Assembly (NCBI GenBank): GCA_025056305.1
Contig: JANWWJ010000041.1
Span: forward strand, 302 to 64,301
DNA length: 64,000 bases
Source of the DNA: Chitinophagales bacterium
Lineage (GTDB): Bacteria; Bacteroidota; Bacteroidia; Chitinophagales; UBA10324
Direction: 5' to 3'
Made by a program: the position numbers and the translations under genes. The notes beneath the pieces were generated by a model. That model saw nothing but the letters and a program-made list of their open reading frames with translations, searched no databases and was not told the DNA's origin. Below, piece after piece: positions 13,019 through 31,664 of the stretch (positions within the stretch are counted from its first letter, which is position 1; each line of letters opens with the position of its first letter).

Positions 13019-13063
13019 AAGGCCGCGAATGCACAGCGTTGTACCTTCGAGGCAAGAAAAGCG

Positions 13064-13315: not shown

Positions 13316-13323
13316 CCTGTAGG

Positions 13324-13397
13324 TGGGCCCACCAGGATTTGAACCTGGGACCTACGGATTATGAGTCCGCTGCTCTAACCAGCTGAGCTATAGGCCC
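13324..13397 (-). tRNA. tRNA with anticodon CAU (Met by default; acceptor stem looks tRNA-Ile2/lysidine-like)
   Basis: The minus strand GGGCCUA-UA-GCUC-AGCUGGUUA-GAGC-A-GCGGA-CUCAUAA-UCCGU-AGGUC-CCAGG-UUCAAAU-CCUGG-UGGGCCC-A folds into a canonical 74-nt cloverleaf. CCA is not encoded. It is not an initiator: pair 1-72 is intact and there is no 3xG:C anticodon stem. Confidence 0.92.
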
Positions 13398-13415
13398 GGC
13401 GCTTACGCGCAACGG

Positions 13416-13423
13416 CAAAATTA
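13416..13423 (-). promoter_or_regulatory. Candidate tRNA promoter -7 box TAATTTTG
   Basis: The minus strand reads TAATTTTG, an exact match to TAnnTTTG, ending ~19 nt upstream of the tRNA 5' end. No well-spaced -33 TTTG was seen. Confidence 0.35.
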
Positions 13424-13552
13424 GGATTTGGCTGAGCAAATCGGGTTTGGGCTTAGTTCAGCGAGGCTACGGACGCAGCGTTCTTGCAAAATCAGTCAAT
13501 TTTTCTTTAAAAAATAACATTTTTTGAAAAAAGCGATTAAAAAGTAAAAAAA

Positions 13553-14077
13553 ATGCAACACCTTTGGGCTGACAGTGCCATGGCATCTACCGCATTGGAC
13601 GATTTAGATTTCCGCATTCTGGCGCAGTTGCAGGATGATGGCCGCAAGTCGTTCACCGAAATTGCGCAAGAACTGCACGTTTCGGTAGGAACGGTGCGCA
13701 ACCGTATTGCCTCTCTGATTGCTTCACGTACCTTGACAGTGATCGGCCGCGTTGATCCGGAAAAAGTCGGCTTTCATGCTTACGCTCATATTTTTATCAA
13801 GGTGCGGCCGGCCGCGCAAATCAACAATGTTGCTCGAAAAATAGCCCGCTTGCCCGAAGTAAGCTTTCTGGCGATGATCAGCGGAGAGTACGATTTGGAG
13901 GTAAACGTGATGTGCCCCAACAACGACCATCTGATTCGGCTGATGAATGAAAAAATACACAGGATCACCGGCGTACATGAAACAAATACAAATATGTACT
14001 TACGGGTTTTCAAAATTGCCCAACCCGATCTGAGCCTGGTTCGTCCGAATTTATTAGTAAGTTCAAACACCAAATAA
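13553..14077 (+). CDS. Lrp/AsnC-family transcriptional regulator
   Basis: The HTH LDDLDFRILAQLQDDGRKSFTEIAQELHVSVGTVRNRI is followed by a RAM/AsnC-type effector domain. The start is ATG 13553 or 13580. The stop is directly followed by the SusC ATG (TAAATG). Confidence 0.88.
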   Translation: MQHLWADSAMASTALDDLDFRILAQLQDDGRKSFTEIAQELHVSVGTVRNRIASLIASRTLTVIGRVDPEKVGFHAYAHIFIKVRPAAQINNVARKIARLPEVSFLAMISGEYDLEVNVMCPNNDHLIRLMNEKIHRITGVHETNTNMYLRVFKIAQPDLSLVRPNLLVSSNTK

Positions 14078-17000
14078 ATGCTTATGAACCTGTTGCGCCT
14101 GTTTGCCTTGGCGGGGATGCTGCCCGTAATCAGCTATGGCCAGCTGACGTTGACCGGCAGTGTACGAGACCAGAACGGCGAGCCACTGCTGGGAGCTACG
14201 GTCCGCTGGAAAGAAAACCCCACCGTAGGCACCCAAACCGATGAAGACGGCCGTTTCTCACTTGTAGTCACGGCAGCCTCTGGTACTTTGATTTTTTCCT
14301 ATGTGGGTTTTGAAGAAAAAGAGGTTGCCTTTTCTGAGGCCAACACCACTTTCCACATCACCCTTTCCACCGAAAAAGAGTTGGAAGAAGTAATCGTAAT
14401 CGGCTACGGCGTGCAGCGCAAGAGTGATGTCACCGGCGCAATTGCCTCGCTGCGGGCTCGTGACATCGAAGGATTACCTCACGCCAACCTGGGCACTTCT
14501 ATCACGGGCAAGGCTTCAGGCTTATACATCAAGACGCCGTCAGGTACACCGGGGGCAGGGTTGTTGGTCAGTGTGCGCGGCAGCGAAAACCCCCTATACG
14601 TGGTGGACGGTATTCCCATGCTCAGTGAAAGCAATTCCGCCCTGGCTACCTCCTATGACACGCAGGGCAACATCACCGGCAACGGACAAAACATCTCTTC
14701 CATTGCCGACATCAACCCCGATGACATAGCCAGCATAGAAATTTTAAAAGATGCGTCGTCCGCTTCTATTTACGGCGCACGGGCTGCCAACGGCGTAGTG
14801 CTCATCACCACCCGCCGAGGGGCTGCGGGCAAAACACAATTTCACTTCAATGCCTACAGTGGTTTACAGACAGCAGCCCGCATCATCCCATTTTTGAGCA
14901 GTGATGCGTTTGTGGCGTTGGTCGAAGATGCCCGTGCTCAGGACTTAAAGAAATATGAAGAAAACCCAGATTATTTCGGGCCTGATTTTGACCCAGCCGT
15001 TTTGACAACCCCCCTTCCGGAATCGTGGTTTACCGGTGTTAACACCAACTGGCTGGACGAAGTGTTGCAGCCGGCCCCTATTGCCAGCGTGCAACTCTCG
15101 GCATCGGGCGGCACTGAGCGTAACCGCTATTACATCAGCAATGCTTATTTTGATCAGCAGGGCATCGTCATCAATTCGTATTACCGTCGTTTTACCAGCC
15201 GCCTCAATTTTGACCAGACGGCCTCCGAACGAGTTACGTTCGGGGAAAATTTGTCGATAACTTATTCGCGCAACCGGCGCAGCTTCAACGACGACACCTA
15301 CACCGGCATCATCACCAACGCCTTGGGCTGTTCCCCCCTGATGCCGCCTTACGATGAAAACGGTAATTATTCTGACTACACCCAATATCAGGCGGCGTGG
15401 TTGAGTGACAACCCCATTCTAAGTGCCAATGAAATCATTGCTTTTTCCAACAGCTACCGCTTCCTCGGCTCAATCTATGCCAACTATACCTTCAGCCCTG
15501 CGTGGGCTCTGCGAAGCAGTGTGGCAGCCGACTTTACGTATTTGACCGATGATCAATTTTGGTCGCCGCTGACTGCCGATGCCAGTGCCTTGGGCGGCAA
15601 AGCGTTCAACGGCAGTTTCAAGCAGTTGATTTGGCTGAATGAAAACACCCTCACCTTCAGCCAAGCGTGGAACGATGCGCACCACCTCAATGCCGTGACG
15701 GGCTTCACCTTGCAGCGCAACCAACAAAATCGTTTAGGTATCACCGGCCAAGGGTTTCCCCCCGGTAGCAACCTACAGACGGTTCAGAGTGCGGCACTCA
15801 TTACCAGCCATGATGCCAGTGCTTCAAGATGGAGTCTGGTGTCGTTTTTGGGTCGCGTGCAATACGATTTCCGAAGCCGCTACTTGGTCAGCGCCAGCAT
15901 GCGGGCAGATGGGTCTTCGCGTTTTGGGCCCGACAATCGCTTTGGCTTGTTTCCTGCTGCCTCGGTGGGATGGCGCTTGAGCGACGAACCGTTCTTTCCC
16001 AAAACCAATTTCCTTTCTGACCTAAAATTTCGCCTCAGCTTTGGCCTCACGGGAGACCAAGAGATCGGCGACTTTCAATACATCAGCTTTTGGACACCAG
16101 TAAGCTATAATGGTCAGGCAGGTTTAGGTCCACGTAACCTCGCCGATCCACGACTGCGCTGGCAAAGCAATCAAAAGTTCAATGCAGGTCTAGACTACGA
16201 ATTTTTCGATGGGCGAATCAATGGTTCTATAGAATATTTCAGGGAAACCAAATATGATTTACTCAGTGAGGACGCCTTGCCGGGCACCTCAGGATTCAGC
16301 TCGATCACGCGTAATGCCGGCCGCATCCGAAACAGTGGCTTTGAGTTTCAAGTCGAAGCAACGCCCATCCAACAGGCCGTCACGTGGCAAGTGGGATTTA
16401 ATCTTTCCTATCTCAATAACGAAGTGCTGGACTTGACTACGGATAGCTTATTGCTATATGCCTATAACGATTTAGCGCCGACGCACATTTTGGCCATCGG
16501 TCACCCACAAGGATCTTTTTGGGGTGTGCGCTATCTGGGCGTAGATCCGCTCACCGGCGATCCCATCTACGATGATTTAAACGGTGATGGCATCATTGAC
16601 GACAACGATGCCACCATTATCGGCAAGGCTTTACCCGATTACTTCGGCGGTCTGCATACTTCGCTGCGATACCGAAATTGGATGCTGGACATCGCAACCA
16701 GTTTTAACATCGGAAACCAGGTGTACAACTTAATTCGAGGCGAATACCTCAGCCTTGGCTACAGCCCTGAAGGATGGGATGCAAACAATGTGCTTTACAT
16801 GGTTTATTCGAATAATTCGACCGAAGCAAACGACCGCTGGAAACAACCCGGCGATCAAACCGATATTCCCCGTGCCTCACTGATCAACTCACATAATTAC
16901 CAGAACTCAACCCAGAATCTGGAAGATGCCAGCTTTTGGCGCTTCAACGACATCACCCTTTCGTACGTTTTCCGACAGGTCGCGGGGCTAAGTCGCTTGC

Positions 17001-17164
17001 GGCTCTATGTTCAAGTACAGAACGCATGGGTGTTCACGCGGTACAGTGGTTTTGACCCGGAGGTGAGCAGCACCGGCGGTTCTGACTTGAATACCACCGG
17101 TGTGGATTATGCCGCTTATCCCAAAGCCCGCACATTTTTGTTCGGAGTAAATGCTTCATTTTAA
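14078..17164 (+). CDS. SusC/RagA-family TonB-linked outer membrane transporter
   Basis: 1028 aa. It has a signal peptide and a carboxypeptidase-regulatory-like domain (LTLTGSVRDQNGEPLLGATV...DEDGRFSL). The plug is VIVIGYGVQRKSDVTGAI and the barrel ends ...FLFGVNASF. There is no N-terminal STN/anti-sigma signalling extension. Confidence 0.92.
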   Translation: MLMNLLRLFALAGMLPVISYGQLTLTGSVRDQNGEPLLGATVRWKENPTVGTQTDEDGRFSLVVTAASGTLIFSYVGFEEKEVAFSEANTTFHITLSTEKELEEVIVIGYGVQRKSDVTGAIASLRARDIEGLPHANLGTSITGKASGLYIKTPSGTPGAGLLVSVRGSENPLYVVDGIPMLSESNSALATSYDTQGNITGNGQNISSIADINPDDIASIEILKDASSASIYGARAANGVVLITTRRGAAGKTQFHFNAYSGLQTAARIIPFLSSDAFVALVEDARAQDLKKYEENPDYFGPDFDPAVLTTPLPESWFTGVNTNWLDEVLQPAPIASVQLSASGGTERNRYYISNAYFDQQGIVINSYYRRFTSRLNFDQTASERVTFGENLSITYSRNRRSFNDDTYTGIITNALGCSPLMPPYDENGNYSDYTQYQAAWLSDNPILSANEIIAFSNSYRFLGSIYANYTFSPAWALRSSVAADFTYLTDDQFWSPLTADASALGGKAFNGSFKQLIWLNENTLTFSQAWNDAHHLNAVTGFTLQRNQQNRLGITGQGFPPGSNLQTVQSAALITSHDASASRWSLVSFLGRVQYDFRSRYLVSASMRADGSSRFGPDNRFGLFPAASVGWRLSDEPFFPKTNFLSDLKFRLSFGLTGDQEIGDFQYISFWTPVSYNGQAGLGPRNLADPRLRWQSNQKFNAGLDYEFFDGRINGSIEYFRETKYDLLSEDALPGTSGFSSITRNAGRIRNSGFEFQVEATPIQQAVTWQVGFNLSYLNNEVLDLTTDSLLLYAYNDLAPTHILAIGHPQGSFWGVRYLGVDPLTGDPIYDDLNGDGIIDDNDATIIGKALPDYFGGLHTSLRYRNWMLDIATSFNIGNQVYNLIRGEYLSLGYSPEGWDANNVLYMVYSNNSTEANDRWKQPGDQTDIPRASLINSHNYQNSTQNLEDASFWRFNDITLSYVFRQVAGLSRLRLYVQVQNAWVFTRYSGFDPEVSSTGGSDLNTTGVDYAAYPKARTFLFGVNASF

Positions 17165-17174
17165 AAAAAGTACT

Positions 17175-18566
17175 ATGAAAAAAAATTGTCTTGTTTTCGT
17201 GCTGTTGCTTGCGTTGGCCTCGTGCGAGTCTTTTTTAGACCTCACCCCGCCCGATGAAGTAACCGACGATCAGGTGCTCACCTCTGCAGAAGGTTTGCTG
17301 TCGGCACGCATTGGCATGTACAATGCCTTGCAACACGACGCCTATTACGGTGGTTTCTTCCCGTTGATGATCGATGCCTACAGCGACAACGGAGCAGCCG
17401 GTGGCTACGACGCCCCCCAACTGAATCAGTTCAATGAAAAAAACCTTGGTGCCGACAACATTTTCATCGATAACTACTGGGTAGCCGCATATCAGGTCAT
17501 TTACACCGCCAACCGTATTCTGCGCAGTGTGGATGAAATTCAAGATGCGTCGCTGAGCGATGCATTGCGCGCGGATGTAAAAGGAGAAGCTTTGGCCATC
17601 AGGGCCTTAGCTCACTTTGACCTCCTGCGCACTTTTGGCGAACACTGGGATCTGCAATCGGCTTGGGGCATTCCACTCATGAACGAACACGATGATCCTG
17701 TCCAACCCAAAGGCCGGGCTTCAGTGGCCGATTGCTACAACTTCATATTAAACGATCTGCAGCAAGCGCGTCAGTTGGTTTCTGCAGACGATTTAGCCTA
17801 TGGCACGGGCCTTAAAACCGCTGCCTACATCACCCCTCAGGCTGTAGCAGCTTTGCTAGCCCGAGTATCGCTGTATCAAAAGGATTACCCAGCAGCGGTA
17901 GCATACGCTACAGAGGTGATCCAAAACAGCTCATACATGCTGTTGGATGATCCTGTGCTGATTTATCAGCAACGACTGACGCCGGAGAGCATTTTCGAAT
18001 TGCAGTTTACAGCACAAGATCAAAGTCAATACAACAACCTCACTTACGTGCGTGACGATGCACTGCGCGTAGATGTTTATTTTCTTGCCAACCGATTGCT
18101 CAACGACTTTTTTCAAGCCCGTCCGGGCGATCGGCGCAGCCAATTGGTCAACTTCGACCCTGCCAGCAACGACGGCAGCATACAGCCCGACGGGCGCACA
18201 CAGAAATACCGAGGTGAAGAAAGCCGAGACAATCCAGCATATGTCATTCGATTGGCCGAAATGTATCTGATCCGTGCCGAAGCTGCGGCCATGTTGGGAG
18301 ATTTAGCTACTTGTCAGAATGACCTGCAAACGTTGGCACAAAAAAGAGGCTATACGCTTCCGCCTGTTACCGCCAACAACTTCATGGATTTGGTTCAAGA
18401 CGAACGCCGTGCCGAACTCAACTTCGAAGGGCATCGCTACTTGGACCTTGCCCGCATTGGTAAAGTTGCTGAAGTTCTGGGTGAGCATGTGCTCCCTGTT
18501 TTTCCCATTCCGATCAATCAAATTCTGGCCAGTGGAGGCCTCATCGAGCAATACCCGGGTTATTGA
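17175..18566 (+). CDS. RagB/SusD-family nutrient-binding outer membrane lipoprotein
   Basis: Lipobox MKKNCLVFVLLLALASC. SusD-like TPR sequence (YLIRAEAAAMLGD, ERRAELNFEGHRYLDLARIG). It starts 10 nt after the SusC stop. Confidence 0.9.
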   Translation: MKKNCLVFVLLLALASCESFLDLTPPDEVTDDQVLTSAEGLLSARIGMYNALQHDAYYGGFFPLMIDAYSDNGAAGGYDAPQLNQFNEKNLGADNIFIDNYWVAAYQVIYTANRILRSVDEIQDASLSDALRADVKGEALAIRALAHFDLLRTFGEHWDLQSAWGIPLMNEHDDPVQPKGRASVADCYNFILNDLQQARQLVSADDLAYGTGLKTAAYITPQAVAALLARVSLYQKDYPAAVAYATEVIQNSSYMLLDDPVLIYQQRLTPESIFELQFTAQDQSQYNNLTYVRDDALRVDVYFLANRLLNDFFQARPGDRRSQLVNFDPASNDGSIQPDGRTQKYRGEESRDNPAYVIRLAEMYLIRAEAAAMLGDLATCQNDLQTLAQKRGYTLPPVTANNFMDLVQDERRAELNFEGHRYLDLARIGKVAEVLGEHVLPVFPIPINQILASGGLIEQYPGY

Positions 18567-19927
18567 TGGCCAACGTTTTTTATTCCATTAATCCCTACAA
18601 CCAGCAGGTGTTTGCCGAACATCCGGTGACGGACGTCCGGGGTATCGGGCAAGCCCTGGAAGCGGCAACCCAAGGCTGGCTTCACTGGAAAAACCTGCCT
18701 GTAAGCAGACGCGGCCTGTACTTGCAAGCCCTTGCCGATGAGTTAGAAAAAGCCAAAGAAGAGCTGGCGTTGCTCATGGCTAAAGAGATGGGAAAGGTCC
18801 TGCGCGAAGGACGGGCAGAAATAGATAAATGTGTCACTGCGTGCCGCTATTTCGCTGAACACGCAGAACTTTTTTTGCGCGATGAACCGATCAGCTGTGA
18901 AGCCCAGCGGGCACTGGTTTGCTACGAGCCCCTGGGCATCATTCTGGGCATTATGCCTTGGAACTTTCCGTTCTGGCAGGTATTACGCGCAGCAGCACCA
19001 GCGCTGATGGCCGGCAACGTTTTTTTGCTTAAGCATGCCCCCAACGTATGCGCGTGCAGCAAAAGGTTAGAACAACTATTCCAGCAGGCCGACTTTCCTG
19101 AGGGCGTTTTCCAAGCGCTGATCATCGATGTGGATCAGGTGCCGCAAATCATCGCCCATCCTCTGGTTCGGGGTGTGACGCTGACGGGCAGTGAGCGTGC
19201 CGGCGCTGCGGTAGCTTCTTTGGCAGGTGTACACATAAAAAAAACCGTACTGGAGCTCGGAGGCAGCGACCCGTTTCTGGTGCTGGACGATGCACCGTTG
19301 GAAGAGGCAGCACAGGTCGCCTTGCAATCGCGCCTGCAAAATGCCGGACAAAGCTGCATTGCGGCCAAGCGCCTGCTCGTGGCCGAAAGCATATATAAAC
19401 CTTTTGTTGATTTGTTACTGGAAGGCTTGAAACAATTCCGTCAGGGTAATCCTTTGGAAGAAGGGGTAGCATTAGGTCCGATGGCTCGTTTGGATTTGGC
19501 CGAAAAACTGGAGCAGCAACAAAACCGATCGGTGCAAATGGGAGCTCAGGTGCTTGCCGGTGGTCAACGCCACGGTTGCAACTATGCTCCAACGCTGCTG
19601 GCTTCGGTGCATACCGATCAGCCGGCTTTTCAGGAAGAATTGTTCGGGCCCGTGGCAGTGGTAATTCCGGTTCGTGACGATGCGCAGGCTGTCGCTCTGG
19701 CCAATCAAAGCCGCTATGGGTTGGGGGCAACCATTTGGACACGCAACCGGCAAAGGGCTGAACAACTTGCCCGCAGGTTGGAGTGTGGCGGCGTGTTTGT
19801 CAATACCCTGATGCGCAGTGATGTTCGGTTTCCTTTTGGCGGAATGAAAAGTTCAGGCTATGGCCGCGAACTGGGCCGCCACGGCATGCTTGAATTCACC
19901 AACATCAAGACCATTTACATCAATTAA
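18566..19927 (+). CDS. NAD(P)-dependent aldehyde dehydrogenase, Sad/YneI-like (succinate-semialdehyde dehydrogenase type)
   Basis: ALDH motifs LELGGSDP and the catalytic Cys in NAGQSCIAAKR, plus EELFGPV. The length of ~453 aa is typical of the short SSADH clade. The ATG overlaps the SusD TGA (TGATG). Confidence 0.85.
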   Translation: MANVFYSINPYNQQVFAEHPVTDVRGIGQALEAATQGWLHWKNLPVSRRGLYLQALADELEKAKEELALLMAKEMGKVLREGRAEIDKCVTACRYFAEHAELFLRDEPISCEAQRALVCYEPLGIILGIMPWNFPFWQVLRAAAPALMAGNVFLLKHAPNVCACSKRLEQLFQQADFPEGVFQALIIDVDQVPQIIAHPLVRGVTLTGSERAGAAVASLAGVHIKKTVLELGGSDPFLVLDDAPLEEAAQVALQSRLQNAGQSCIAAKRLLVAESIYKPFVDLLLEGLKQFRQGNPLEEGVALGPMARLDLAEKLEQQQNRSVQMGAQVLAGGQRHGCNYAPTLLASVHTDQPAFQEELFGPVAVVIPVRDDAQAVALANQSRYGLGATIWTRNRQRAEQLARRLECGGVFVNTLMRSDVRFPFGGMKSSGYGRELGRHGMLEFTNIKTIYIN

Positions 19928-19940
19928 AAAACACACTAAT

Positions 19941-21296: not shown

Positions 21297-21323
21297 TAGC
21301 CTTCTCGCTAAAGGTGCTCCACA

Positions 21324-22754: not shown

Positions 22755-22813
22755 AGATTTGCAGCCCTTCTGTGAAACTGATGGGTTGTGCCCGTTGCCT
22801 GATCTTTAAGCAT

Positions 22814-24238: not shown

Positions 24239-24286
24239 TTCCTGAACCAGTGCTAAACGGCAAAACGAATTGGCGCCACCGTCCAT

Positions 24287-24327
24287 CCCCGGCAGGGCAT
24301 CGAATACCGCAAGGGGTTTGTTTTTTG
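24287..24327 (+). terminator. Possible weak intrinsic terminator inside the cluster
   Basis: CCCCGG...CCGCAAGGGG followed by TTTGTTTTTT. The stem is imperfect and the loop is long. It lies in the only sizeable gap (126 nt) of the 13.5-30.9 kb cluster. Confidence 0.3.
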
Positions 24328-24364
24328 ATAAAACTTCTATATTGGATCTAAAGCCTACAGATAA

Positions 24365-25786: not shown

Positions 25787-25854
25787 ACGCAAGGGATTTT
25801 TTCTCTCTGCAAACACATACAAACATGCATTGAGCTCACGAACTTGTGCGCGGC

Positions 25855-27213
25855 ATGCCATCTGAGTACGGTGCCCTGGCGTTAATCCCCCCGTTGTTGG
25901 TCATCATCCTGGCTATTCGCTTGCGCAGCTCTTTTGAACCATTGCTGCTGGGATGTCTGGCGGGATTTCTCATCATCTCGCTGAAAGGCGGACCGGACTT
26001 TTTTACCGGCTTTGTAAACACCCTCTACCAGGTCATGATGGATAAAGAAACGATCTGGGTGATCTTGGTATGCGGATTGTATGGCTCGTTGATCGGCCTT
26101 TTGATGCACAGCGGTTCGGCACAGGCTTTTGCCCGCCTGATGTTGAACAACATCCGTTCAAAGCAGAGGGCTTTAATCAGCTCATGGGCTTTGGGCATCG
26201 CTCTTTTCCTTGACGATTACCTCAGCGCTTTGACCACAGGCTCTACCATGAAGCGCGTTACCGACCAGTTCCGCATTTCGCGGCTCATGCTGGCCTATGT
26301 GGTCAATGCCACGGCTGCTTCGGTGTGCGTTATCGTACCGCTTTCTACTTGGACCTTGTTTGTCGGAAGCATCCTGGAAGAATGCGGCTATGCCGCTGCC
26401 GAAGGCGGCAATACCGCATACTGGTCGCTGATCCCATATATTTTTTATGGATGGATATCGGTACTGCTGGTGCCCTTCGTTGTAAAGGGCTGGTTACCGC
26501 TGTGGGGGCGAATGCAACAAGCAGAAACAAACGCCCAGCTTTCCGAAGCAACCCCGGTTGATGTTGACCAACAGATGAACTTAGTGGGCCAACGTTCGGT
26601 AGGAGCCATGCATTTCATCATTCCTCTGGCGGTGCTTTTACTGGCCACCGTGCTGTTGGACTTTGATGCCCTCAAGGGAGTGATGATAGCCGTGCTATTC
26701 ACTTTTGTGTTTTATTTAATACAAAAGATTGCTCCATTTCACAAACTTTCTGAAACCGTTTTCCAAGGTTTCAATTCTATGGTTTATGCCTTGGCTCTGT
26801 TGGTCATGAGCTATGTGCTTAAGGAAGTGGGTGATCAAATGAACCTAACTCGTTATGTCATTGAGCAGGTGCAGCCCTATGTGAATGGCCACTTGTTGCC
26901 AGCACTTATTTTCCTTACCATGGGTGCCATTGCCTGGGCCACCGGCAGTTCGTGGGGGTTGTACGCTGTGGTTATCCCGTTAGTCCTCCCGCTTGCCCAG
27001 TCGTGTGGCGCTGATGTTTCGCTTACCCTCGGAGCGGTGATCAGCGCAGGAGTTTTCGGCGCAAATGCCTGCCTTTTTTCGGATGCGACGATCCTGACGG
27101 CCCAGGCCACCGACACCAACAACGTAGATCATGCCTTGTCCCAACTGCCGTACACCCTGCTGGCTTTTGCTCTTTCTTTGTTGCTGTACCTGCTGGCAGG
27201 TTTTATGTCGTAG
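25855..27213 (+). CDS. NhaC-family (Na+/H+ antiporter-type) membrane transporter
   Basis: ~450 aa with ~11-12 TM. Its overall resemblance is to NhaC/MleN-type antiporters (LIPPLLVIILAI...; C-terminal SDATILTAQAT). ATG 25855 is chosen over GTG 25846. Confidence 0.7.
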   Translation: MPSEYGALALIPPLLVIILAIRLRSSFEPLLLGCLAGFLIISLKGGPDFFTGFVNTLYQVMMDKETIWVILVCGLYGSLIGLLMHSGSAQAFARLMLNNIRSKQRALISSWALGIALFLDDYLSALTTGSTMKRVTDQFRISRLMLAYVVNATAASVCVIVPLSTWTLFVGSILEECGYAAAEGGNTAYWSLIPYIFYGWISVLLVPFVVKGWLPLWGRMQQAETNAQLSEATPVDVDQQMNLVGQRSVGAMHFIIPLAVLLLATVLLDFDALKGVMIAVLFTFVFYLIQKIAPFHKLSETVFQGFNSMVYALALLVMSYVLKEVGDQMNLTRYVIEQVQPYVNGHLLPALIFLTMGAIAWATGSSWGLYAVVIPLVLPLAQSCGADVSLTLGAVISAGVFGANACLFSDATILTAQATDTNNVDHALSQLPYTLLAFALSLLLYLLAGFMS

Positions 27214-27218
27214 CGATC

Positions 27219-27863
27219 ATGTTGCAGCTTCAATTACCTGACAGACTGATCATCACCCATACACAGGCAGCGCATGCCGAAGCACTGGAAGCCCTGCAAC
27301 GCCTGGTATTTCCCCATCTGGCCGAGGAAGAACGGCTGCATGCCGACCAATACCGCCAGCATTTAAAGGTCTTTCCCGAGGGCCAGTTTGTAGCCTTAGC
27401 CGACGGACAGGTGGTCGGCGGCACGACCACGATGCGCTATCGTGCCGACCTCAGCCACATAACCCCACACCGCTTTTACGAAATCATGGGTGGAGGATGG
27501 CTCAGCACCCATCAACCCGATGGCAACTGGCTCTATGGCCTCGACGTCAGTGTGCATCCTGAGTATCGCCAACGCGGCATTGCCCGAGGCTTTTACCGAG
27601 TACGTCAGTATTTGTGTCGGGAGCTGGGCCTTGCCGGCCAGCTTATTGTTGGCATGCTCAACGGATATCAGCGGTACAGCGAAATGATGACTGTAGAGGA
27701 ATACTACGAAAAGGTGCTTAAAGGCGAACTGTTTGATCCGACGGTAAGCGTTCAAATCAAAATAGGGTTTTCGCCAGTAGCCCTGATGAAAGATTACCTG
27801 CATGATGCCACCTGCGGCAATGCAGGGGTTTTAATGGTATTGCCGGCAGAAGCCGACCTGTGA
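27219..27863 (+). CDS. GNAT-family N-acyltransferase
   Basis: The acetyl-CoA binding motif region LDVSVHPEYRQRGIARGFY (Q/RxxGxG/A) lies in a ~214-aa GNAT-sized protein. Confidence 0.75.
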   Translation: MLQLQLPDRLIITHTQAAHAEALEALQRLVFPHLAEEERLHADQYRQHLKVFPEGQFVALADGQVVGGTTTMRYRADLSHITPHRFYEIMGGGWLSTHQPDGNWLYGLDVSVHPEYRQRGIARGFYRVRQYLCRELGLAGQLIVGMLNGYQRYSEMMTVEEYYEKVLKGELFDPTVSVQIKIGFSPVALMKDYLHDATCGNAGVLMVLPAEADL

Positions 27864-27909
27864 ACCATGAGGCCGCCTTTTTTAGGTTAGTTCATAAAAA
27901 TTTTTTTTA

Positions 27910-29256
27910 ATGAATACGATACAGCTACGGACGGAAGTACCCGGGCCCGTTTCCCGGCAATGGTTAGAACGCAGACGCCAGGCATTGCCCACGGGCTTGG
28001 CCCGTTCCACAGATGTGGTGATTGCTTGGGCTGAAGGTGCCCATGTGCGTGATGTGGACGGCAATGATCTGCTGGATTTTGCCGGCGGCATCGGCATGCT
28101 GAATGCTGGTCATCGCCCGCCGGCTGTGGTAGAAGCCCTAAAGAAACAACTGGACCAATACCTCCATGTCTGCACGTTGGTAGCTACCATACCGCCATAT
28201 GTTGAGCTTGCCGAACTGCTCAACAGCTTAGCGCCCGGCAATTTTCCCAAGAAGACATTGCTGGCAAATTCTGGCAGCGAAGCGGTAGAAAATGCTGTTA
28301 ACATCGCACGCTATTATACGCGCCGCCCTGCCGTGGTATGTTTCGAAGGCGCCTATCATGGCCGCACCTTGTTGACGCTATCGCTCACCAGCAAGTACGG
28401 ATTGTTCAAAAAAGGATTTGGGCCTTTTTGCCCCGACATCTACAGGCTGGAAGCCCCTTACCCCTACCGAAGACCAGCTTGCATGGACCAGGAGGAATAC
28501 ATCGACTACTGCTGCCGCCGGCTTGAAGAACAACTTGTTGCCCAAGTAGATCCTGCTGCAGTTGCCGCAATCATCATTGAGCCTGTCCAGGGAGAAGGAG
28601 GCTTTATTCCCATGCCTACACGTTTTCTGCAACGCCTGCGTGAATTAGCCACAGCTCACGGCATCGTGCTCATATTTGATGAGATACAATGCGGAGCCGG
28701 ACGTACGGGAAAGTTTTTTGCCTGCGAGCACAGCGGCGTCATTCCCGATATGATTTGCATGGCCAAATCCATAGGTTCAGGTTTACCGATCAGTGCCGTT
28801 GTTGGTAAGGCTGAAATCATGGACAGTCCACATCCGGGTGGAGTAGGTGGCACGTACGGAGGCAGCCCGCTGGCCTGTGTCGCTGCTTTGGAAACCATTC
28901 GTCAGATCGCTTCGCCGACTTTTCTGCAACGGGCCCAGCAGATCGGAGCGCATTTACAACAAACTTTATCGACTTGGAAAAACCGCTATCGGATTATCGG
29001 CGACGTGCGGGGGTTGGGTGCCATGCAACTCATAGAGTTTGTTCGCGATGGGGATCCCCTAAAACCCGACCCCGAAATCACTTTGTCCATCATTCGCGAT
29101 GCAGTTGCCCATGGCTTGTTGTTGATCCGCGCCGGTTTGTACAGCAGTTGCATACGCCTGTTGCCCCCTCTGGTCATCAGCGATGATCAGCTTCACGAGG
29201 GTTTGGCCGTGCTGGAGGCAGCCATTGCTCGTGCCGAAAAGCAACACGATAAATGA
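27910..29256 (+). CDS. Class-III PLP aminotransferase, 4-aminobutyrate aminotransferase (GabT)-like, second copy
   Basis: GGIGMLNAGHRPP, SGSEAVENAVNIAR, EPVQGEGGF and DEIQCGAGRTGKF. The PLP lysine is in CMAKSIGSGLPISA, and GDVRGLGAM is present. Confidence 0.87.
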   Translation: MNTIQLRTEVPGPVSRQWLERRRQALPTGLARSTDVVIAWAEGAHVRDVDGNDLLDFAGGIGMLNAGHRPPAVVEALKKQLDQYLHVCTLVATIPPYVELAELLNSLAPGNFPKKTLLANSGSEAVENAVNIARYYTRRPAVVCFEGAYHGRTLLTLSLTSKYGLFKKGFGPFCPDIYRLEAPYPYRRPACMDQEEYIDYCCRRLEEQLVAQVDPAAVAAIIIEPVQGEGGFIPMPTRFLQRLRELATAHGIVLIFDEIQCGAGRTGKFFACEHSGVIPDMICMAKSIGSGLPISAVVGKAEIMDSPHPGGVGGTYGGSPLACVAALETIRQIASPTFLQRAQQIGAHLQQTLSTWKNRYRIIGDVRGLGAMQLIEFVRDGDPLKPDPEITLSIIRDAVAHGLLLIRAGLYSSCIRLLPPLVISDDQLHEGLAVLEAAIARAEKQHDK

Positions 29257-30872
29257 GGCATTCCAAGCATATTATTTTTTATAATGCAAACATATTGACC
29301 CAGGACAGCAGGCAGCCTCGGGCTTCTGCTTTGCTGATCAGTGGCGATACCATCCGGGCCGTTGGGGAAACAGCCGACGTTTTGGCCCATGCTTCGGCCG
29401 ACACGCCATTGGTTGACCTGCAGGGATTAACCCTAATTCCCGGCTTTATCGACGCCCATATACACGTCTGGAAGGTTGGTAACTTGCTCACCCACCAGCT
29501 CGATGTTCGGAACGTTCGATCGCTGGACGAGCTGCTCGAAGCGCTGATTGCTTACCGCCGGCAATATCCCGAACGTCGTTGGTTACTTGCGCGGGGTTTT
29601 AATGAGGCATTGTGGCCGCAGGTCCGTATGCCCGACCGCCACGATCTGGACCGCGCTGTCAGCGACCGACCCCTGACAGTTATGCGCACCTGTGCCCACC
29701 AGCTTGTAGCCAACACCGCAGCATTGGAAGCAGCCGGGATTTCTGCAGCGACGGAAGATCCTGCCGGAGGCAGCATAGGTAGAGACAGCACGGGTCAACC
29801 CAACGGTCAACTCATTGAAACGGCCATGGGCTTAATCCTCAACCGCCTGCCGCAACCTAATCCAGAAGAGTATTGTGAGATGATCGAAGCAGCCCAACGC
29901 AGGTTGTTGGAGAACGGGATTACGGCCGCCACCGACCCGGCCGTGATGCCCGATGTACTGCAGGTCTATCGCCACATGTGTCAGCAAGGTCTGCTTCAGG
30001 TGCGCTTGCAGGCTATACCTGTGCGTTTGCCCGAAGGAGCACTACAACCATTGCCCTTGCCCGACCTTTTTGAGCACCCTTACTTGCAAATAAACACCGT
30101 AAAGTTCTTTGCCGATGGTGCCATCAGTGGGCGCACCGCAGCCATGTATCAGCCTTATCCCGGCACCAACCATAGAGGGTGTTTGCGGTTGCAGGCCGAA
30201 CAGCTCTTCCATTATGCCAACGAAGCCCAGCAGGCCGGCTTTCGTATCGCCACTCATGCCATAGGCGATGCAGCTATGGACCTAGTGTGCCATACATACG
30301 AACAGCTCTGGCAGCAATACCGCCGACCTTACAATCGAATTGAACATGTTGGCTTGCCTTCAACCGATAATCTGCATTTCATGCACGAAGCGCACGTCTG
30401 TGCTGTTATGCAGCCAATTTTTATATATGAATTAGGTCGAAATTTTCGACTGTATCTGGATGATGAGCGCCGAAACCGTCTCTATCCCCTCCGGTCGGTA
30501 CGCGACGCCGGTGTAAGGCTGGCTCTTTCCACCGATGCCCCTGTGGTTTCCTCGCTTAATCCTTTTGATAACCTGCGTGCTGCGGTATTTCGCCGGGATG
30601 CCGAAGGCTATTACATCGGCCCCGACCAGGGGCTCACGCCTGCAGAAGCCTTGGAAGCATACACCATGGGCAGCGCATGGGCCAATCAAACCGCCTCCTT
30701 TAACGGTAGCCTCTCGGCAGGCAAGTGGGCCGACTTTGTCGTGTTAAATGACAATCCTTTGCTGTTGAAAGACTCATTGATGGTAGTTGCCACCTTTGTC
30801 GGCGGCACTTTGCGCTACCTTACGCCTCATCCACAATACCATGGCTGGTTACGTGAATTCGAGGGCAAATAA
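29253..30872 (+). CDS. Metal-dependent amidohydrolase (amidohydrolase-3 / YtcJ-like family)
   Basis: The N-terminal metal site is GFIDAHIHVW. There is a later HAIGD histidine and a C-terminal LSTDAPV aspartate. 539 aa. The ATG overlaps the upstream stop (ATGA). Confidence 0.8.
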   Translation: MRHSKHIIFYNANILTQDSRQPRASALLISGDTIRAVGETADVLAHASADTPLVDLQGLTLIPGFIDAHIHVWKVGNLLTHQLDVRNVRSLDELLEALIAYRRQYPERRWLLARGFNEALWPQVRMPDRHDLDRAVSDRPLTVMRTCAHQLVANTAALEAAGISAATEDPAGGSIGRDSTGQPNGQLIETAMGLILNRLPQPNPEEYCEMIEAAQRRLLENGITAATDPAVMPDVLQVYRHMCQQGLLQVRLQAIPVRLPEGALQPLPLPDLFEHPYLQINTVKFFADGAISGRTAAMYQPYPGTNHRGCLRLQAEQLFHYANEAQQAGFRIATHAIGDAAMDLVCHTYEQLWQQYRRPYNRIEHVGLPSTDNLHFMHEAHVCAVMQPIFIYELGRNFRLYLDDERRNRLYPLRSVRDAGVRLALSTDAPVVSSLNPFDNLRAAVFRRDAEGYYIGPDQGLTPAEALEAYTMGSAWANQTASFNGSLSAGKWADFVVLNDNPLLLKDSLMVVATFVGGTLRYLTPHPQYHGWLREFEGK

Positions 30873-30903
30873 TTTTTTTACGTTTGGATCCAAATCGCTT
30901 CGA

Positions 30904-31662: not shown

Positions 31663-31664
31663 CT

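What the first reader, a model, noticed from the sequence alone, without database searches (positions are those of the whole stretch)
13553..30872. SusC/SusD locus without any CAZyme, joined to a double aminotransferase/aldehyde-dehydrogenase pathway: candidate Sus-type uptake system for an amine or amide nutrient
Seen in sequence: twelve consecutive + strand genes with junctions from -4 to +126 nt.
- Lrp/AsnC regulator.
- SusC-like TonB-linked transporter.
- SusD-like lipoprotein.
- Sad/YneI-like ALDH.
- GabT-like aminotransferase.
- SpmA/B-type Gate membrane protein.
- Secreted thioredoxin-fold protein.
- GabD-like ALDH.
- NhaC-family transporter.
- GNAT.
- Second GabT-like aminotransferase.
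- Amidohydrolase-3 enzyme.

Established knowledge: SusC/SusD pairs define polysaccharide utilization loci. They normally sit with glycoside hydrolases or lyases and with SusR, HTCS or ECF/anti-sigma regulators.

None of those partners is recognisable here. The SusC lacks an STN signalling domain, and every enzyme belongs to nitrogen-compound catabolism.

Inference, in three steps:
- The outer-membrane pair captures an amino- or amide-containing substrate, such as an N-acylated diamine, an omega-amino-acid oligomer or an unusual peptide-like compound.
- One of the two inner-membrane proteins imports it.
- The amidohydrolase and GNAT handle an amide bond, and two transamination/oxidation rounds convert the amine carbon skeleton to a dicarboxylate.

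I do not know of a described Sus-type system with this wiring, but I cannot search to confirm that it is novel.
Basis: partly seen in the sequence, partly recalled or inferred. Interest (0 to 1): 0.82.

Follow-up and report, generated by a model that had tools for sequence, protein, structure and literature searches.

The report
SusCD locus wired to amine catabolism
A soil-type Bacteroidota genome couples the outer-membrane SusC/SusD machinery, best known for importing sugars, to enzymes that break down small amines (probably polyamines). The same coupling recurs in dozens of related genomes, so this looks like an undescribed non-sugar use of the machinery.

Summary
Twelve tightly spaced + strand genes (13553-30872) encode an Lrp/AsnC regulator, SusC, SusD, two SSADH-like aldehyde dehydrogenases, two GabT-like aminotransferases, a Gate-domain membrane protein, a secreted CGHC thioredoxin-fold protein, an NhaC-family transporter, a GNAT-fold protein and a YtcJ-like amidohydrolase. 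No glycoside hydrolase, lyase or esterase domain was found.

Of 51 related loci with at least 9 kb downstream of SusD (SusD identity 41-82%, several Bacteroidota orders), 46 keep aminotransferase plus ALDH behind SusCD. Most also keep NhaC, GNAT, a second aminotransferase and the amidohydrolase. Gate and the thioredoxin protein are lineage-specific extras.

Many relatives add a Tat-exported MAO-like flavin amine oxidase directly after SusD. The AT2/GNAT/amidohydrolase/SSADH module also occurs in Deinococcus, Meiothermus and Microlunatus. There it sits beside PotABCD-type transporters, APC permeases and a PuuD-like hydrolase.

The best reading is a SusCD-fed utilisation locus for a polyamine-type amine, using acyl-protect/transaminate/oxidise/deprotect logic. 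The exact substrate is unresolved, and all evidence is comparative. I found no published description. I rate it a new variant of a known kind.

The parts
13553..14077 (+). Lrp/AsnC-family transcriptional regulator. Its stop codon abuts the SusC start codon.
   Evidence: HTH_AsnC-type 6.5e-14 and AsnC_trans_reg 1.7e-15. Found upstream of SusC in 22 related loci and never together with the alternative ~330-aa upstream protein.
14078..17164 (+). SusC/RagA-type TonB-dependent outer-membrane transporter, without an STN domain.
   Evidence: TIGR04056 at 793 bits (cut-off 368), signature TIGR04057 at 61 bits (cut-off 46), CarbopepD_reg_2 plus Plug.
17175..18566 (+). SusD/RagB-type surface lipoprotein (the lid).
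   Evidence: SusD-like_3 plus SusD_RagB. Lipoprotein signal ending ...ALASC. The AF2 model (pLDDT 69) matches solved SusD-like proteins. It is 100% identical to a Chitinophagales MAG protein.
18563..19927 (+). ALDH1, a Sad/YneI-like NAD(P)-dependent aldehyde dehydrogenase.
   Evidence: Aldedh 2e-133. Best PDB matches are 3efv and 8qmq (Sad). Catalytic ELGG and GQSC motifs are present. Present in the AsnC-type loci and in some oxidase-type loci.
19938..21296 (+). AT1, a class-III (GabT/PuuE-like) aminotransferase.
   Evidence: Aminotran_3 1e-117. Best PDB matches are PuuE and GabT. The equivalents of GabT I50, R141, E211, K268 and R398 are kept in all 58 family members.
21324..22754 (+). Gate-domain polytopic membrane protein, a lineage-specific candidate transporter.
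   Evidence: Two Pfam Gate stretches. About 8 hydrophobic segments. Present in only 6 related loci, those with SusD identity of at least 53%.
22814..24238 (+). Secreted thioredoxin-fold protein with a CGHC motif and a ~320-aa N-terminal region of unknown fold. A lineage-specific passenger.
   Evidence: AhpC-TSA/Redoxin/Thioredoxin_8 at residues 353-490. Signal peptide and CGHC motif. The N-terminal part has no PDB or Pfam hit. Found only in L001 and L009; toxin-antitoxin pairs occupy this slot in L003 and L005.
24365..25786 (+). ALDH2, a GabD-type succinate-semialdehyde-dehydrogenase-like enzyme.
   Evidence: Aldedh 1e-158. TIGR01780 scores 473 bits, below the 646 cut-off. Best PDB matches are SSADH 8of1 and 3jz4. 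Catalytic GQVC motif present. Conserved in nearly all loci.
25846..27213 (+). NhaC-family secondary transporter, the conserved inner-membrane candidate importer.
   Evidence: Na_H_antiporter 3.4e-25. Weak NCBIfam hits to Tet(35), ArcD and NhaC. About 10 hydrophobic segments. Present in 42 of 51 informative loci.
27219..27863 (+). GNAT-fold protein of a distinct family, the presumed N-acyltransferase of the pathway.
   Evidence: Weak Acetyltransf_1 hit. AF2 pLDDT 96. Nearest folds are SxtA, GphF and CurA GNAT-like domains with TM 0.77-0.84, but their Thr/His dyad aligns to invariant G145/Q179. Orthologues lie next to AT2 and the amidohydrolase in Deinococcus, Meiothermus and Microlunatus.
27910..29256 (+). 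AT2, a GabT-like aminotransferase.
   Evidence: TIGR00700 at 504.8 against a cut-off of 506.65. Best PDB matches are GabT 4ffc, 3oks and 1sf2. The R141, E211, K268 and R398 equivalents are kept. 51-53% identical to the aminotransferase adjacent to the GNAT in Deinococcus.
29253..30872 (+). YtcJ-like Amidohydro_3 metallo-amidohydrolase, cytoplasmic.
   Evidence: Amidohydro_3 1.2e-88. Best PDB matches are the uncharacterised 3icj and 3igh. HxH motif present and no signal peptide. 40-42% identical to the Deinococcus cluster amidohydrolase. The family includes epsilon-lysine acylase (PMC10699109).

Best explanation
The locus is an operon-like nutrient-utilisation unit. An Lrp/AsnC regulator controls a SusC/SusD outer-membrane pair together with a cytoplasmic pathway for a small nitrogenous amine. 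The substrate is most likely a diamine or polyamine (putrescine, cadaverine or spermidine type, possibly N-acylated) or the omega-amino acids derived from them.

Proposed route:
1. SusD captures the amine at the cell surface, and SusC moves it across the outer membrane using TonB energy.
2. The NhaC-family carrier takes it into the cytoplasm. In this lineage the Gate protein may also contribute.
3. The GNAT-fold enzyme N-acylates one amino group.
4. A GabT-like aminotransferase converts the other amino group to an aldehyde.
5. An SSADH-like dehydrogenase oxidises the aldehyde to the acid.
6. The YtcJ-like amidohydrolase removes the acyl group, giving an omega-amino acid.
7. The second aminotransferase/ALDH pair converts the omega-amino acid to a dicarboxylate such as succinate or glutarate, releasing both nitrogens as glutamate.

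In many relatives a Tat-exported flavin amine oxidase carries out an oxidative step in the periplasm instead of, or in addition to, a cytoplasmic step.

Shown here: gene content, cellular location signals, and conservation of the linkage and of the enzyme module. Inferred: the substrate, the order of the steps, which transporter acts where, and co-transcription.
For: Family calls and the absence of any CAZyme domain.

Location: all window enzymes lack signal peptides, while SusD is a lipoprotein.

Synteny of the SusCD-enzyme linkage:
- 46 of 51 loci with at least 9 kb downstream of SusD keep AT plus ALDH.
- 43 keep the GNAT, 42 keep NhaC, 36 keep two ATs and 31 keep Amido3.
- The loci span several Bacteroidota orders, and gene order is permuted.
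- Intergenic gaps are short.
- The regulator gene lies only upstream of SusC.

Evidence for amine chemistry:
- The MAO/putrescine-oxidase-like flavoenzyme directly after SusD carries an SRRxFLK Tat motif in 34 of 38 cases.
- An APC permease follows SusCD in L080 and L081.

Evidence for the substrate class from other phyla:
- Orthologous AT2/GNAT/amidohydrolase/SSADH modules occur in Deinococcus, with an APC permease, a PucR regulator and a Tat-signal FAD oxidoreductase.
- They occur in Microlunatus.
- In Meiothermus silvanus the module lies inside a PotA-like ATPase/permease/two-SBP cassette. The SBPs match only PotD and PotF models.
- In L098 the GNAT is flanked by a Pot-type importer and a PuuD-like gamma-glutamyl-GABA hydrolase.

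Both aminotransferase families keep the GabT residues R141, E211, K268 and R398.

The YtcJ-like family contains N-acyl-amine hydrolases: epsilon-lysine acylase (PMC10699109) and metallo bile-salt hydrolases (PMC13081902).

The acetylation route of bacterial polyamine catabolism is described as incomplete. The review says the further fate of acetylspermidine is not yet known (PMC9397018).
Against: - There are no expression, growth, transport or binding data.
- Small hydrophilic amines normally cross outer membranes through porins, and characterised SusD lids bind oligomers or at least sugar-sized ligands.
- Neither aminotransferase is PatA/YgjG-like. Both keep the Arg that binds a substrate carboxylate in GabT. 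That fits omega-amino acids or carboxylated N-acyl amines better than free diamines.
- The GNAT is not SpeG-like. Its nearest structures are thioester decarboxylase domains, and it lacks their catalytic dyad, so its chemistry is unknown.
- From my own knowledge, the PotD/PotF-type SBP family also includes binders of GABA and 2-aminoethylphosphonate. The ATPase also scores well on a PhnT2 model.
- The window clade lacks the amine oxidase.
- L003 lacks AT2 and the amidohydrolase.
- L090 carries the enzyme/NhaC module without SusCD within 10 kb.
- The SusD model is unreliable exactly in its variable, presumably ligand-binding region.
Confidence: 0.55

Rival explanations
1. The nutrient is not a polyamine. 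It is an omega-amino acid (GABA, 5-aminovalerate, beta-alanine), or a basic amino acid such as lysine or ornithine, or their N-acyl derivatives. SusCD and NhaC import it. The amidohydrolase deacylates N-acyl forms. The two GabT-like/SSADH-like pairs carry out two omega-transamination/oxidation rounds. In relatives the exported flavoenzyme acts as an L-amino-acid or lysine oxidase that generates omega-amino acids in the periplasm.
For: - Both aminotransferase families keep the carboxylate-binding Arg141 equivalent and score best on GabT/PuuE.
- AT2 is within 2 bits of the GabT equivalog cut-off.
- Both ALDHs are SSADH-like.
- Lrp/AsnC regulators typically sense amino acids; the best weak hit is LysM.
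- The oxidase also matches L-amino-acid oxidases.
- A YtcJ-like enzyme is an epsilon-lysine acylase.
- PucR-type regulators accompany the Deinococcus module.
- From my own knowledge, the NhaC family includes amino-acid carriers; there is a weak ArcD hit.
Against: - The SBPs next to the module in Meiothermus and L098 match only the PotD/PotF polyamine models, and a PuuD-like gene is adjacent.
- A simple omega-amino-acid pathway does not need a GNAT plus an amidohydrolase, yet these two are the most tightly conserved partners of AT2 across three phyla.
- The oxidase scores higher on MAO-A/B and cyclohexylamine oxidase than on L-amino-acid oxidases.
Confidence: 0.25
2. SusCD imports an amide-linked conjugate or oligomer that carries amine units. 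Examples are N-acylated polyamines, phenolamides, hydroxamate siderophores built from diamines, and omega-amino-acid oligomers. The cytoplasmic amidohydrolase splits the conjugate, and the released amine units are transaminated and oxidised.
For: - The SusCD 'pedal-bin' transporters characterised so far handle ligands larger than porin-sized solutes: oligosaccharides, oligopeptides in RagAB, and a ubiquitin-like protein in ButCD (papers listed).
- The amidohydrolase is well conserved in the locus, in 31 or more of 51 loci.
- PF07969 members hydrolyse bulky N-acyl amides.
Against: - No surface or periplasmic hydrolase, binding lipoprotein or any other recurrent accessory gene is present.
- The same enzyme module is fed by PotABCD-type and APC carriers elsewhere, and these take small molecules.
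- An NhaC-type secondary carrier is an unlikely importer for a large conjugate.
- L003 has SusCD and the first enzyme set but no amidohydrolase.
Confidence: 0.12
3. The adjacency is not functional. SusCD serves an unrelated ligand such as a peptide or a glycan whose enzymes are encoded elsewhere. It merely sits upstream of an independent amine-catabolic operon.
For: - The enzyme/NhaC module can stand alone without SusCD (L090), and it exists without SusCD in other phyla.
- A few SusD relatives (L044, L049, L079, L083, L088) have unrelated genes downstream.
- The consensus scans found no promoter or terminator signal either way.
Against: - 46 of 51 informative loci keep the linkage across orders, while the internal gene order changes.
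- The oxidase or ALDH1 follows SusD with a median gap of 30-68 nt.
- The only regulator gene lies upstream of SusC, and AsnC abuts SusC with no gap.
- Where the enzymes are missing, an APC amino-acid/polyamine-type permease follows SusCD in L080 and L081.
Confidence: 0.06

Closest known systems
Canonical polysaccharide utilisation loci (Sus of Bacteroides thetaiotaomicron and relatives)
   Same: An adjacent susC/susD pair at the head of a co-oriented gene cluster with a dedicated regulator and downstream catabolic genes. SusC and SusD pass the family models.
   Different: There is no glycoside hydrolase, lyase, esterase or SusE/F-like lipoprotein. There is no SusR, HTCS or ECF/anti-sigma regulator and no STN domain. 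All partner enzymes belong to amine or omega-amino-acid catabolism.
RagAB of Porphyromonas gingivalis and ButCD of Bacteroides (non-glycan SusCD systems; bioRxiv 10.1101/755678, PMC11467351, listed)
   Same: SusCD-type pairs used for a nitrogen-containing, non-carbohydrate ligand. RagB and ButD appear among the structural matches of the SusD model.
   Different: Those systems import oligopeptides or a small protein, and they are not clustered with a catabolic pathway. Here the partners point to a small amine, and a full cytoplasmic pathway is co-located.
NanO/NanU sialic-acid uptake (SusCD-type pair for a monomeric small molecule; own knowledge, with NanU structure 4l7t)
   Same: It sets a precedent that a SusD-family lid can serve a small monomeric nutrient whose catabolic genes lie alongside.
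   Different: That ligand is an acidic sugar, not an amine. Only a weak N-terminal match to the NanU model was found.
Bacterial polyamine catabolic routes: the aminotransferase pathway (PatA-PatD-GabT-GabD), the gamma-glutamylation (Puu) pathway, direct oxidation, spermidine dehydrogenase and acetylation (review PMC9397018)
   Same: Two class-III aminotransferases plus two ALDHs match the enzyme count of the PatA-PatD-GabT-GabD route. GNAT plus AT/oxidase plus ALDH plus amidohydrolase plus GabT plus SSADH mirrors the protect/oxidise/deprotect logic of PuuA-B-C-D-E/Sad. An exported flavin oxidase in relatives recalls the direct-oxidation and SpdH routes.
   Different: No PatA, PuuA, PuuD, SpeG or SpdH homologue is present in the window. 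The protecting group would be installed by an uncharacterised GNAT family and removed by a YtcJ-like amidohydrolase. Uptake is by SusCD plus NhaC rather than by PuuP or PotFGHI. The review does not mention Bacteroidota at all.
Arginine/ornithine succinyltransferase (AST) pathway (own knowledge)
   Same: The logic is the same: N-acyltransferase, class-III aminotransferase, ALDH, then deacylase. It avoids cyclising amino-aldehydes.
   Different: AstA, AstB and AstE homologues are absent. The astC and astD NCBIfam models score far below the GabT and SSADH models.
Uncharacterised AT2/GNAT/amidohydrolase/SSADH clusters of Deinococcus, Meiothermus and Microlunatus
   Same: These are true orthologues: GNAT 38-42%, AT2 51-53% and amidohydrolase 40-42% identical. 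They are adjacent and often overlap by 4 nt.
   Different: Transport there is by an APC permease or a PotABCD-type ABC system, and the regulator is of the PucR type. There is no outer-membrane component. I found no experimental characterisation.

Membership tests
SusC/RagA TonB-dependent transporter | Full-length match to TIGR04056 above the curated cut-off, plus the SusC/RagA signature and a Plug domain. | tested here: met
   793 bits against 368; TIGR04057 at 61.4 against 46.2; Plug 3e-15.
SusD/RagB lipoprotein | SusD-like_3 and SusD_RagB domains, a lipoprotein signal, and a TPR-based SusD fold. | tested here: met
   Pfam scores of 81 and 67 bits are above the cut-offs. The signal ends in ...ASC. 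The top Foldseek hits are all SusD-like structures. The model is low-confidence in residues 252-349.
Polysaccharide utilisation locus (PUL) | A SusC/SusD pair. | tested here: met
Polysaccharide utilisation locus (PUL) | Co-located carbohydrate-active enzymes (GH, PL or CE). | tested here: not met
   No such Pfam domain occurs in the 12 proteins. No recurrent additional gene family occurs across 84 related loci. dbCAN itself was not available.
Polysaccharide utilisation locus (PUL) | A SusR, hybrid two-component or ECF/anti-sigma regulator, with an STN domain on SusC for the ECF type. | tested here: not met
   The regulator is Lrp/AsnC, and there is no STN hit. Relatives use an unrelated ~330-aa protein with no Pfam or NCBIfam match.
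GabT (4-aminobutyrate:2-oxoglutarate transaminase) equivalog | A score above the TIGR00700 cut-off, and the active-site residues K268, R141, E211 and R398. | tested here: inconclusive
   AT2 scores 504.8 and AT1 477.2 against a cut-off of 506.65. The residues are conserved in both families. Substrate specificity cannot be tested with these tools.
PatA/YgjG-type putrescine aminotransferase pathway (PatA-PatD-GabT-GabD) | A PatA-type diamine aminotransferase and a PatD-type aminobutyraldehyde dehydrogenase. | tested here: not met
   No putrescine-aminotransferase model appears among the 25 best NCBIfam hits of either aminotransferase. The aminobutyraldehyde dehydrogenase models score 312 and 399 bits, below the SSADH models and below their own cut-offs.
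Succinate-semialdehyde dehydrogenase (Sad/YneI, GabD) | A score above the equivalog or subfamily cut-offs, with the catalytic Cys and Glu. | tested here: inconclusive
   The best models are SSADH, but both proteins fall below the cut-offs: 478 against 855 for ALDH1 and 473 against 646 for ALDH2. The catalytic motifs are present.
CurA/GphF/SxtA GNAT-like thioester decarboxylase | The GNAT_L fold. | tested here: met
   TM 0.77-0.84 and E values of 1e-11 to 1e-13 to 7uci, 6mfc and 2ref.
CurA/GphF/SxtA GNAT-like thioester decarboxylase | The catalytic Thr/His dyad (CurA T355/H389; numbering from memory, consistent with positions 140 and 174 of 2ree). | tested here: not met
   In the profile alignment these positions align to invariant G145 and Q179 of this family.
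Puu (gamma-glutamylation) and AST pathways | Homologues of PuuA and PuuD, or of AstA and AstE. | tested here: not met
   None is present among the window proteins. The resemblance is one of logic only. A PuuD-like gene occurs next to a GNAT orthologue in L098.
Lrp/AsnC regulators | An N-terminal AsnC-type HTH plus a C-terminal AsnC_trans_reg (RAM) ligand domain. | tested here: met
   Both domains score above the cut-offs. The effector cannot be tested with these tools.

The most novel reading that the evidence does not exclude
This family of SusC/SusD pairs is a dedicated TonB-powered outer-membrane importer for polyamines or diamines, which would be the first of its kind. It feeds a previously unrecognised acyl-protection pathway: GNAT, then GabT-like aminotransferase, then ALDH, then YtcJ-like amidohydrolase, then GabT/SSADH. 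This pathway would be the missing continuation of the bacterial polyamine 'acetylation' route. It is shared by Bacteroidota, Deinococcota and Actinomycetota, which differ in their uptake systems (SusCD/NhaC, PotABCD or APC).
Probability: 0.35. Interest if true: 0.8.

Novelty: new variant of a known kind. Interest (0 to 1): 0.68.

Why it matters
SusC/SusD pairs are routinely used as markers of glycan use when Bacteroidota genomes and metagenomes are annotated. A conserved SusCD family that serves amine catabolism would show that part of this signal reflects organic-nitrogen scavenging instead. It would extend the ligand range of the pedal-bin transporters to small cationic nutrients.

It would also point to a way for soil and freshwater Bacteroidota to compete for polyamines. 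These are abundant in decaying biomass and are otherwise thought to be taken up by PotABCD-type systems.

Independently of SusCD, the AT2/GNAT/amidohydrolase/SSADH module is widespread. The GNAT family has about 2,700 members, and I found no characterisation of the module. It could fill the gap noted for the acetylation route of polyamine breakdown (PMC9397018).

Cultured carriers exist, so the idea can be tested directly:
- Panacibacter ginsenosidivorans
- Limnovirga soli
- Foetidibacter luteolus
- Flavihumibacter profundi
- Meiothermus silvanus
- Deinococcus species

Tried and rejected
- Promoter and terminator consensus scans of 12900-31800 gave fewer or no more sites than shuffled sequence. 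Sigma-70 rules also do not apply to Bacteroidota, so the scans say nothing about operon structure.
- An Rfam scan for a riboswitch that might name the ligand found only the tRNA and a spurious antisense hit.
- The SusD structure prediction was meant to reveal the ligand site. The TPR core is confident, but the variable region (residues 252-349) has pLDDT below 50. Foldseek returns generic SusD-like proteins of mixed or unknown specificity, so the ligand cannot be inferred.
- I considered the idea that the GNAT is a CurA-type malonyl-thioester decarboxylase, which its fold suggests. I rejected it because the catalytic dyad is replaced.
- I looked for a hidden CAZyme or known domain in the N-terminal 320 residues of the thioredoxin-fold protein. 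There was no Pfam or PDB sequence match, and the gene is not conserved in the locus anyway.
- Ectoine, taurine/homotaurine, 2-aminoethylphosphonate and lysine-LAT pathways were considered from the NCBIfam hit lists. Their specific models all score well below the GabT and SSADH models. None explains the Pot-type neighbours of the orthologous module.
- Seven literature searches combined SusC/SusD or TonB-dependent transport with polyamine, GABA, amine oxidase, aminotransferase, amidohydrolase or AsnC, or searched for acetamidobutyrate deacetylase. None found a description of such a locus or module. The library does not cover most subscription journals, so absence there is not proof of novelty.
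- NCBIfam and Pfam gave no identity for the ~330-aa divergent upstream protein of the oxidase-type loci.

Full report
**1. What is in the window**

Between a tRNA-Met(CAT) gene on the - strand (13322-13397) and a PcrB/RsgA/Dtd housekeeping block lie twelve + strand genes with junctions of about -4 to +126 nt.

- An Lrp/AsnC regulator (13553-14077).
- SusC (14078-17164). TIGR04056 scores 793 bits against a cut-off of 368. It has a CarbopepD_reg_2 domain and a Plug domain, and no STN domain.
- SusD (17175-18566), with a lipoprotein signal.
- ALDH1 (18563-19927).
- AT1 (about 19938-21296).
- A protein with two Gate domains (21324-22754).
- A secreted thioredoxin-fold protein with a CGHC motif (about 22814-24238).
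- ALDH2 (24365-25786).
- An NhaC-family carrier (25846-27213).
- A weakly scoring GNAT (27219-27863).
- AT2 (27910-29256).
- An Amidohydro_3 enzyme (29253-30872).

The best solved relatives are Sad/YneI for ALDH1, GabD-type SSADH for ALDH2, GabT/PuuE for both aminotransferases, and two uncharacterised YtcJ-like hydrolases for the amidohydrolase. No equivalog cut-off is reached, although AT2 misses the GabT cut-off by only 2 bits. None of the proteins carries a glycoside hydrolase, lyase or esterase domain. All enzymes lack signal peptides. The SusD is 100% identical to a protein of a Chitinophagales MAG.

**2. Is the SusCD-enzyme linkage conserved?**

Contexts of SusD homologues at 80, 60, 53 and 47% identity all show SusC-SusD followed by ALDH, aminotransferase, NhaC and GNAT genes.

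I then scanned one genome per species with a SusD alignment. This gave 80 further loci, with SusD identity of 41-82%. They come from:

- Chitinophagales, including the cultured Panacibacter, Limnovirga, Foetidibacter and Flavihumibacter.
- Sphingobacteriales.
- Cytophagales (Chryseolinea, Ohtaekwangia, Cyclobacteriaceae).
- Saprospiraceae.
- One Flavobacteriaceae MAG.

Results from tblastn and all-against-all ORF clustering, for the 51 loci with at least 9 kb downstream of SusD:

| Feature downstream of SusD | Loci (of 51) |
|---|---|
| Aminotransferase plus ALDH | 46 |
| GNAT | 43 |
| NhaC | 42 |
| Two aminotransferases | 36 |
| Amidohydrolase | 31 |

The last two counts are lower bounds, because many loci are cut off at their ends. 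Gene order is permuted between orders. For example, Cytophagales have oxidase-ALDH1-AT1-GNAT-AT2-amidohydrolase-ALDH2-NhaC. SusCD always leads on the same strand, and median gaps are 4-85 nt. No other gene family recurs, so there is no conserved CAZyme or accessory lipoprotein. The Gate protein (6 loci) and the thioredoxin protein (2 loci) are lineage-specific. Toxin-antitoxin pairs occupy the same slot in other relatives.

**3. Two architectures**

Among the 59 loci with enough upstream sequence, 22 have the co-oriented AsnC gene. Another 25 have a divergently transcribed protein of about 330 aa with no Pfam or NCBIfam match. No locus has both.

The second type nearly always (21 of 25) carries a flavin amine oxidase (PF01593) directly after SusD. 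The AsnC type nearly always lacks it (21 of 22), and the window has no copy. The oxidase's best solved relatives are MAO-A/B, cyclohexylamine oxidase, L-amino-acid oxidases and putrescine oxidase. In 34 of 38 cases it carries an SRRxFLK twin-arginine motif, so it is exported. In two Saprospiraceae loci that lack the enzymes, an APC-family permease follows SusCD. All of this points to an amine or amino compound, not a glycan.

**4. The enzyme module is older and wider than the Sus association**

A tblastn search of the GNAT against plasmids found Deinococcus clusters with the following order:

- PucR-type regulator
- APC permease
- Tat-signal FAD oxidoreductase (present in one of the two Deinococcus clusters, sp. 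KNUC1210)
- gabT
- AT2 orthologue (51-53% identical)
- GNAT orthologue (38-42% identical, sometimes annotated 'nitrilase')
- Amidohydrolase (40-42% identical)
- SSADH

A profile search finds about 2,700 members of the GNAT family in Deinococcus, Meiothermus, Microlunatus and Bacteroidota.

- Microlunatus has AT-GNAT-amidohydrolase-ALDH with 4-nt overlaps.
- In Meiothermus silvanus the GNAT-amidohydrolase pair sits inside a cassette of a TOBE_2 ATPase, two permeases and two solute-binding proteins (SBPs). The SBPs' only NCBIfam matches are PotD (225 and 213 bits) and PotF. The ATPase scores 346.7 against 355.6 on the potA subfamily model.
- In another contig the GNAT is flanked by a Pot-type importer and a PuuD-like gamma-glutamyl-GABA hydrolase.

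So other phyla feed the orthologous module through polyamine-type inner-membrane importers. Bacteroidota have attached it to SusCD plus an NhaC-family carrier. One soil contig has ALDH2-NhaC-GNAT-AT2-amidohydrolase without SusCD. The module is therefore separable from SusCD.

**5. What the enzymes say about the chemistry**

Both aminotransferase families keep the E. coli GabT residues I50, R141, E211, K268 and R398 (the roles of these residues are from my own knowledge of the GabT structures). This favours substrates that carry a carboxylate, such as omega-amino acids or N-acyl amines with a carboxylated acyl group. It argues against a PatA-type diamine aminotransferase.

The GNAT folds with high confidence (pLDDT 96). 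It is closest to the GNAT-like malonyl/methylmalonyl-thioester decarboxylase domains of SxtA, GphF and CurA (TM 0.77-0.84). Their Thr/His dyad aligns to invariant Gly145/Gln179 in this family, while the CoA-binding R-x-x-G-x-A motif is kept. It is therefore not a decarboxylase of that type. An N-acyltransferase that uses a possibly dicarboxylic acyl-CoA is my inference.

YtcJ-like amidohydrolases include epsilon-lysine acylase and metal-dependent bile-salt hydrolases, which are hydrolases of N-acyl amines (PMC10699109, PMC13081902).

A set of acyltransferase, aminotransferase, ALDH and deacylase, followed by GabT and SSADH, uses the same logic as the Puu and AST pathways and the eukaryotic N-acetylputrescine route (own knowledge). 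The 2022 review of bacterial polyamine catabolism lists five routes. It states that the further fate of acetylspermidine is unknown, and it never mentions Bacteroidota (PMC9397018).

**6. Most likely mechanism**

- AsnC senses the nutrient or an intermediate and controls one transcription unit (inferred).
- SusD/SusC take up a polyamine-type amine at low external concentration (inferred).
- NhaC imports it into the cytoplasm. The Gate protein is an accessory in this clade (inferred).
- GNAT, AT2, an ALDH and the amidohydrolase convert one amino end to a carboxylate under acyl protection. AT1 or AT2 with ALDH1 or ALDH2 finish the conversion to a dicarboxylate (inferred from family membership and conserved adjacency).
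- In oxidase-type relatives a periplasmic oxidation precedes import. The location is shown by the Tat signals; the role is inferred.

I put about 0.8 on 'SusCD functionally coupled to catabolism of a small amine or amino compound, not a glycan'. I put about 0.45 on polyamines or diamines specifically, and 0.55 on the composite statement.

**7. Rivals**

- Omega-amino acids or basic amino acids and their N-acyl forms as the true substrate: 0.25.
- Non-functional adjacency: 0.06.

Evidence for and against each is given in the Rival explanations section.

**8. Comparison with what is known, and novelty**

The locus passes the tests for SusC, SusD and Lrp/AsnC membership. It fails two of the three defining features of a PUL, namely CAZymes and the usual regulators. 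It works like a PUL in layout and like the Puu/AST pathways in chemistry, but it has no homologues of their defining enzymes. Non-glycan SusCD systems are known: RagAB for peptides, ButCD for a ubiquitin-like protein, and NanOU for sialic acid (own knowledge).

Seven full-text searches found no description of a SusCD pair linked to amine catabolism or of this enzyme module. A 2025 review of microbial polyamine transport contains neither 'SusC' nor 'SusD'. The library misses most subscription journals.

I rate the finding a new variant of a known kind, with interest 0.68. It is well supported by comparative genomics and directly testable in cultured strains. The substrate is still unproven.

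**9. Rest of the window**

The largest other ORFs are ordinary Bacteroidota genes:

- A POT peptide transporter
- DPP-IV
- BamA
- T9SS cargo proteins
- Kup
- Ribonucleotide reductase

The cluster has slightly higher G+C (0.52-0.55) than its flanks (0.49-0.50). Its neighbours (MTHFR, HAD, ABM, SDR) are syntenic in relatives down to 53% SusD identity, so it is not a recent insertion.

Noticed in passing
window 13322-13397 (- strand): A tRNA-Met(CAT) gene lies immediately upstream of the AsnC gene. Rfam also reports a sub-threshold 'Plastid-ycf2' hit on the opposite strand of the same bases, which is evidently spurious.
   Followed up: yes
L008 5689-6678 (-) and 27 other related loci: A conserved protein of about 330 aa has no Pfam or NCBIfam match. 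It is transcribed divergently 200-300 nt upstream of SusC. It is never found together with AsnC (0 of 59 loci) and is usually found with the Tat-exported amine oxidase (21 of 25). It is a candidate new regulator of the oxidase-type loci.
   Followed up: partly
window 22814-24238; L003 13341-14022; L005 14421-15088: There is a variable slot inside the conserved locus. The window and its two closest relatives carry a secreted CGHC thioredoxin-fold protein with an unassignable 320-aa N-terminal region. Other relatives carry DUF6364+PIN toxin-antitoxin pairs at roughly the same place.
   Followed up: partly
L091 8896-9588; plasmid hits H8, H9, H11, H14, H15; L094 7987-9618: Orthologues of the locus GNAT are annotated 'nitrilase' in several Deinococcus genomes. 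More distant relatives are fused to, or adjacent to, carbon-nitrogen hydrolase genes (Salinivibrio, Sphingomonas, Parabacteroides, Priestia). This suggests a recurrent GNAT-plus-amidase partnership with non-homologous amidases.
   Followed up: partly
L006 19596-20015 and 9 other Bacteroidota loci; L097 11210-11641: A second, small GNAT of 139-143 aa accompanies the module in 10 related Bacteroidota loci. It lies between AT2 and the amidohydrolase in L006. In Meiothermus silvanus it lies after the amidohydrolase, and there it passes the AAC(6') group E model (154.7 against 140 bits).
   Followed up: partly
L011 (CAZGBP010000035.1): This contig is labelled 'uncultured Bifidobacteriaceae bacterium', but it carries the full AsnC-SusCD-enzyme locus with 53% SusD identity to the window and the same gene order as Chitinophagaceae loci. 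The MAG is probably mis-binned or mislabelled.
   Followed up: no
L081 6856-9944: SusC is split into two consecutive ORFs (733 and 296 aa) in one Saprospiraceae MAG. This could be a frameshift, a pseudogene or an assembly error.
   Followed up: no
window 30787-31662: The longest PcrB-family ORF overlaps the 3' end of the amidohydrolase gene by 86 nt. The Pfam match starts only at residue 58, so the true start is probably downstream. RsgA and Dtd follow on the + strand, and FeoB lies on the - strand (33112-35226).
   Followed up: partly
window 14001-32000 versus flanks: G+C is 0.52-0.55 across the locus against 0.49-0.50 in the flanking 10 kb. The flanking genes (MTHFR, HAD, ABM, SDR) are nevertheless syntenic in relatives down to 53% SusD identity, so this is not a recent insertion.
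   Followed up: partly
window 2712-4397, 38793-41315, 43165-45345, 46565-50068, 53804-55909: The rest of the window encodes a POT-family peptide transporter, BamA, a DPP-IV-type peptidase and two PKD/CHU_C type IX secretion cargo proteins. This is ordinary Bacteroidota content, and no glycoside hydrolase, lyase or esterase domain appeared in the ten large ORFs scanned; one carries a weak glycosyltransferase-family-28 match (35597-36877).
   Followed up: partly
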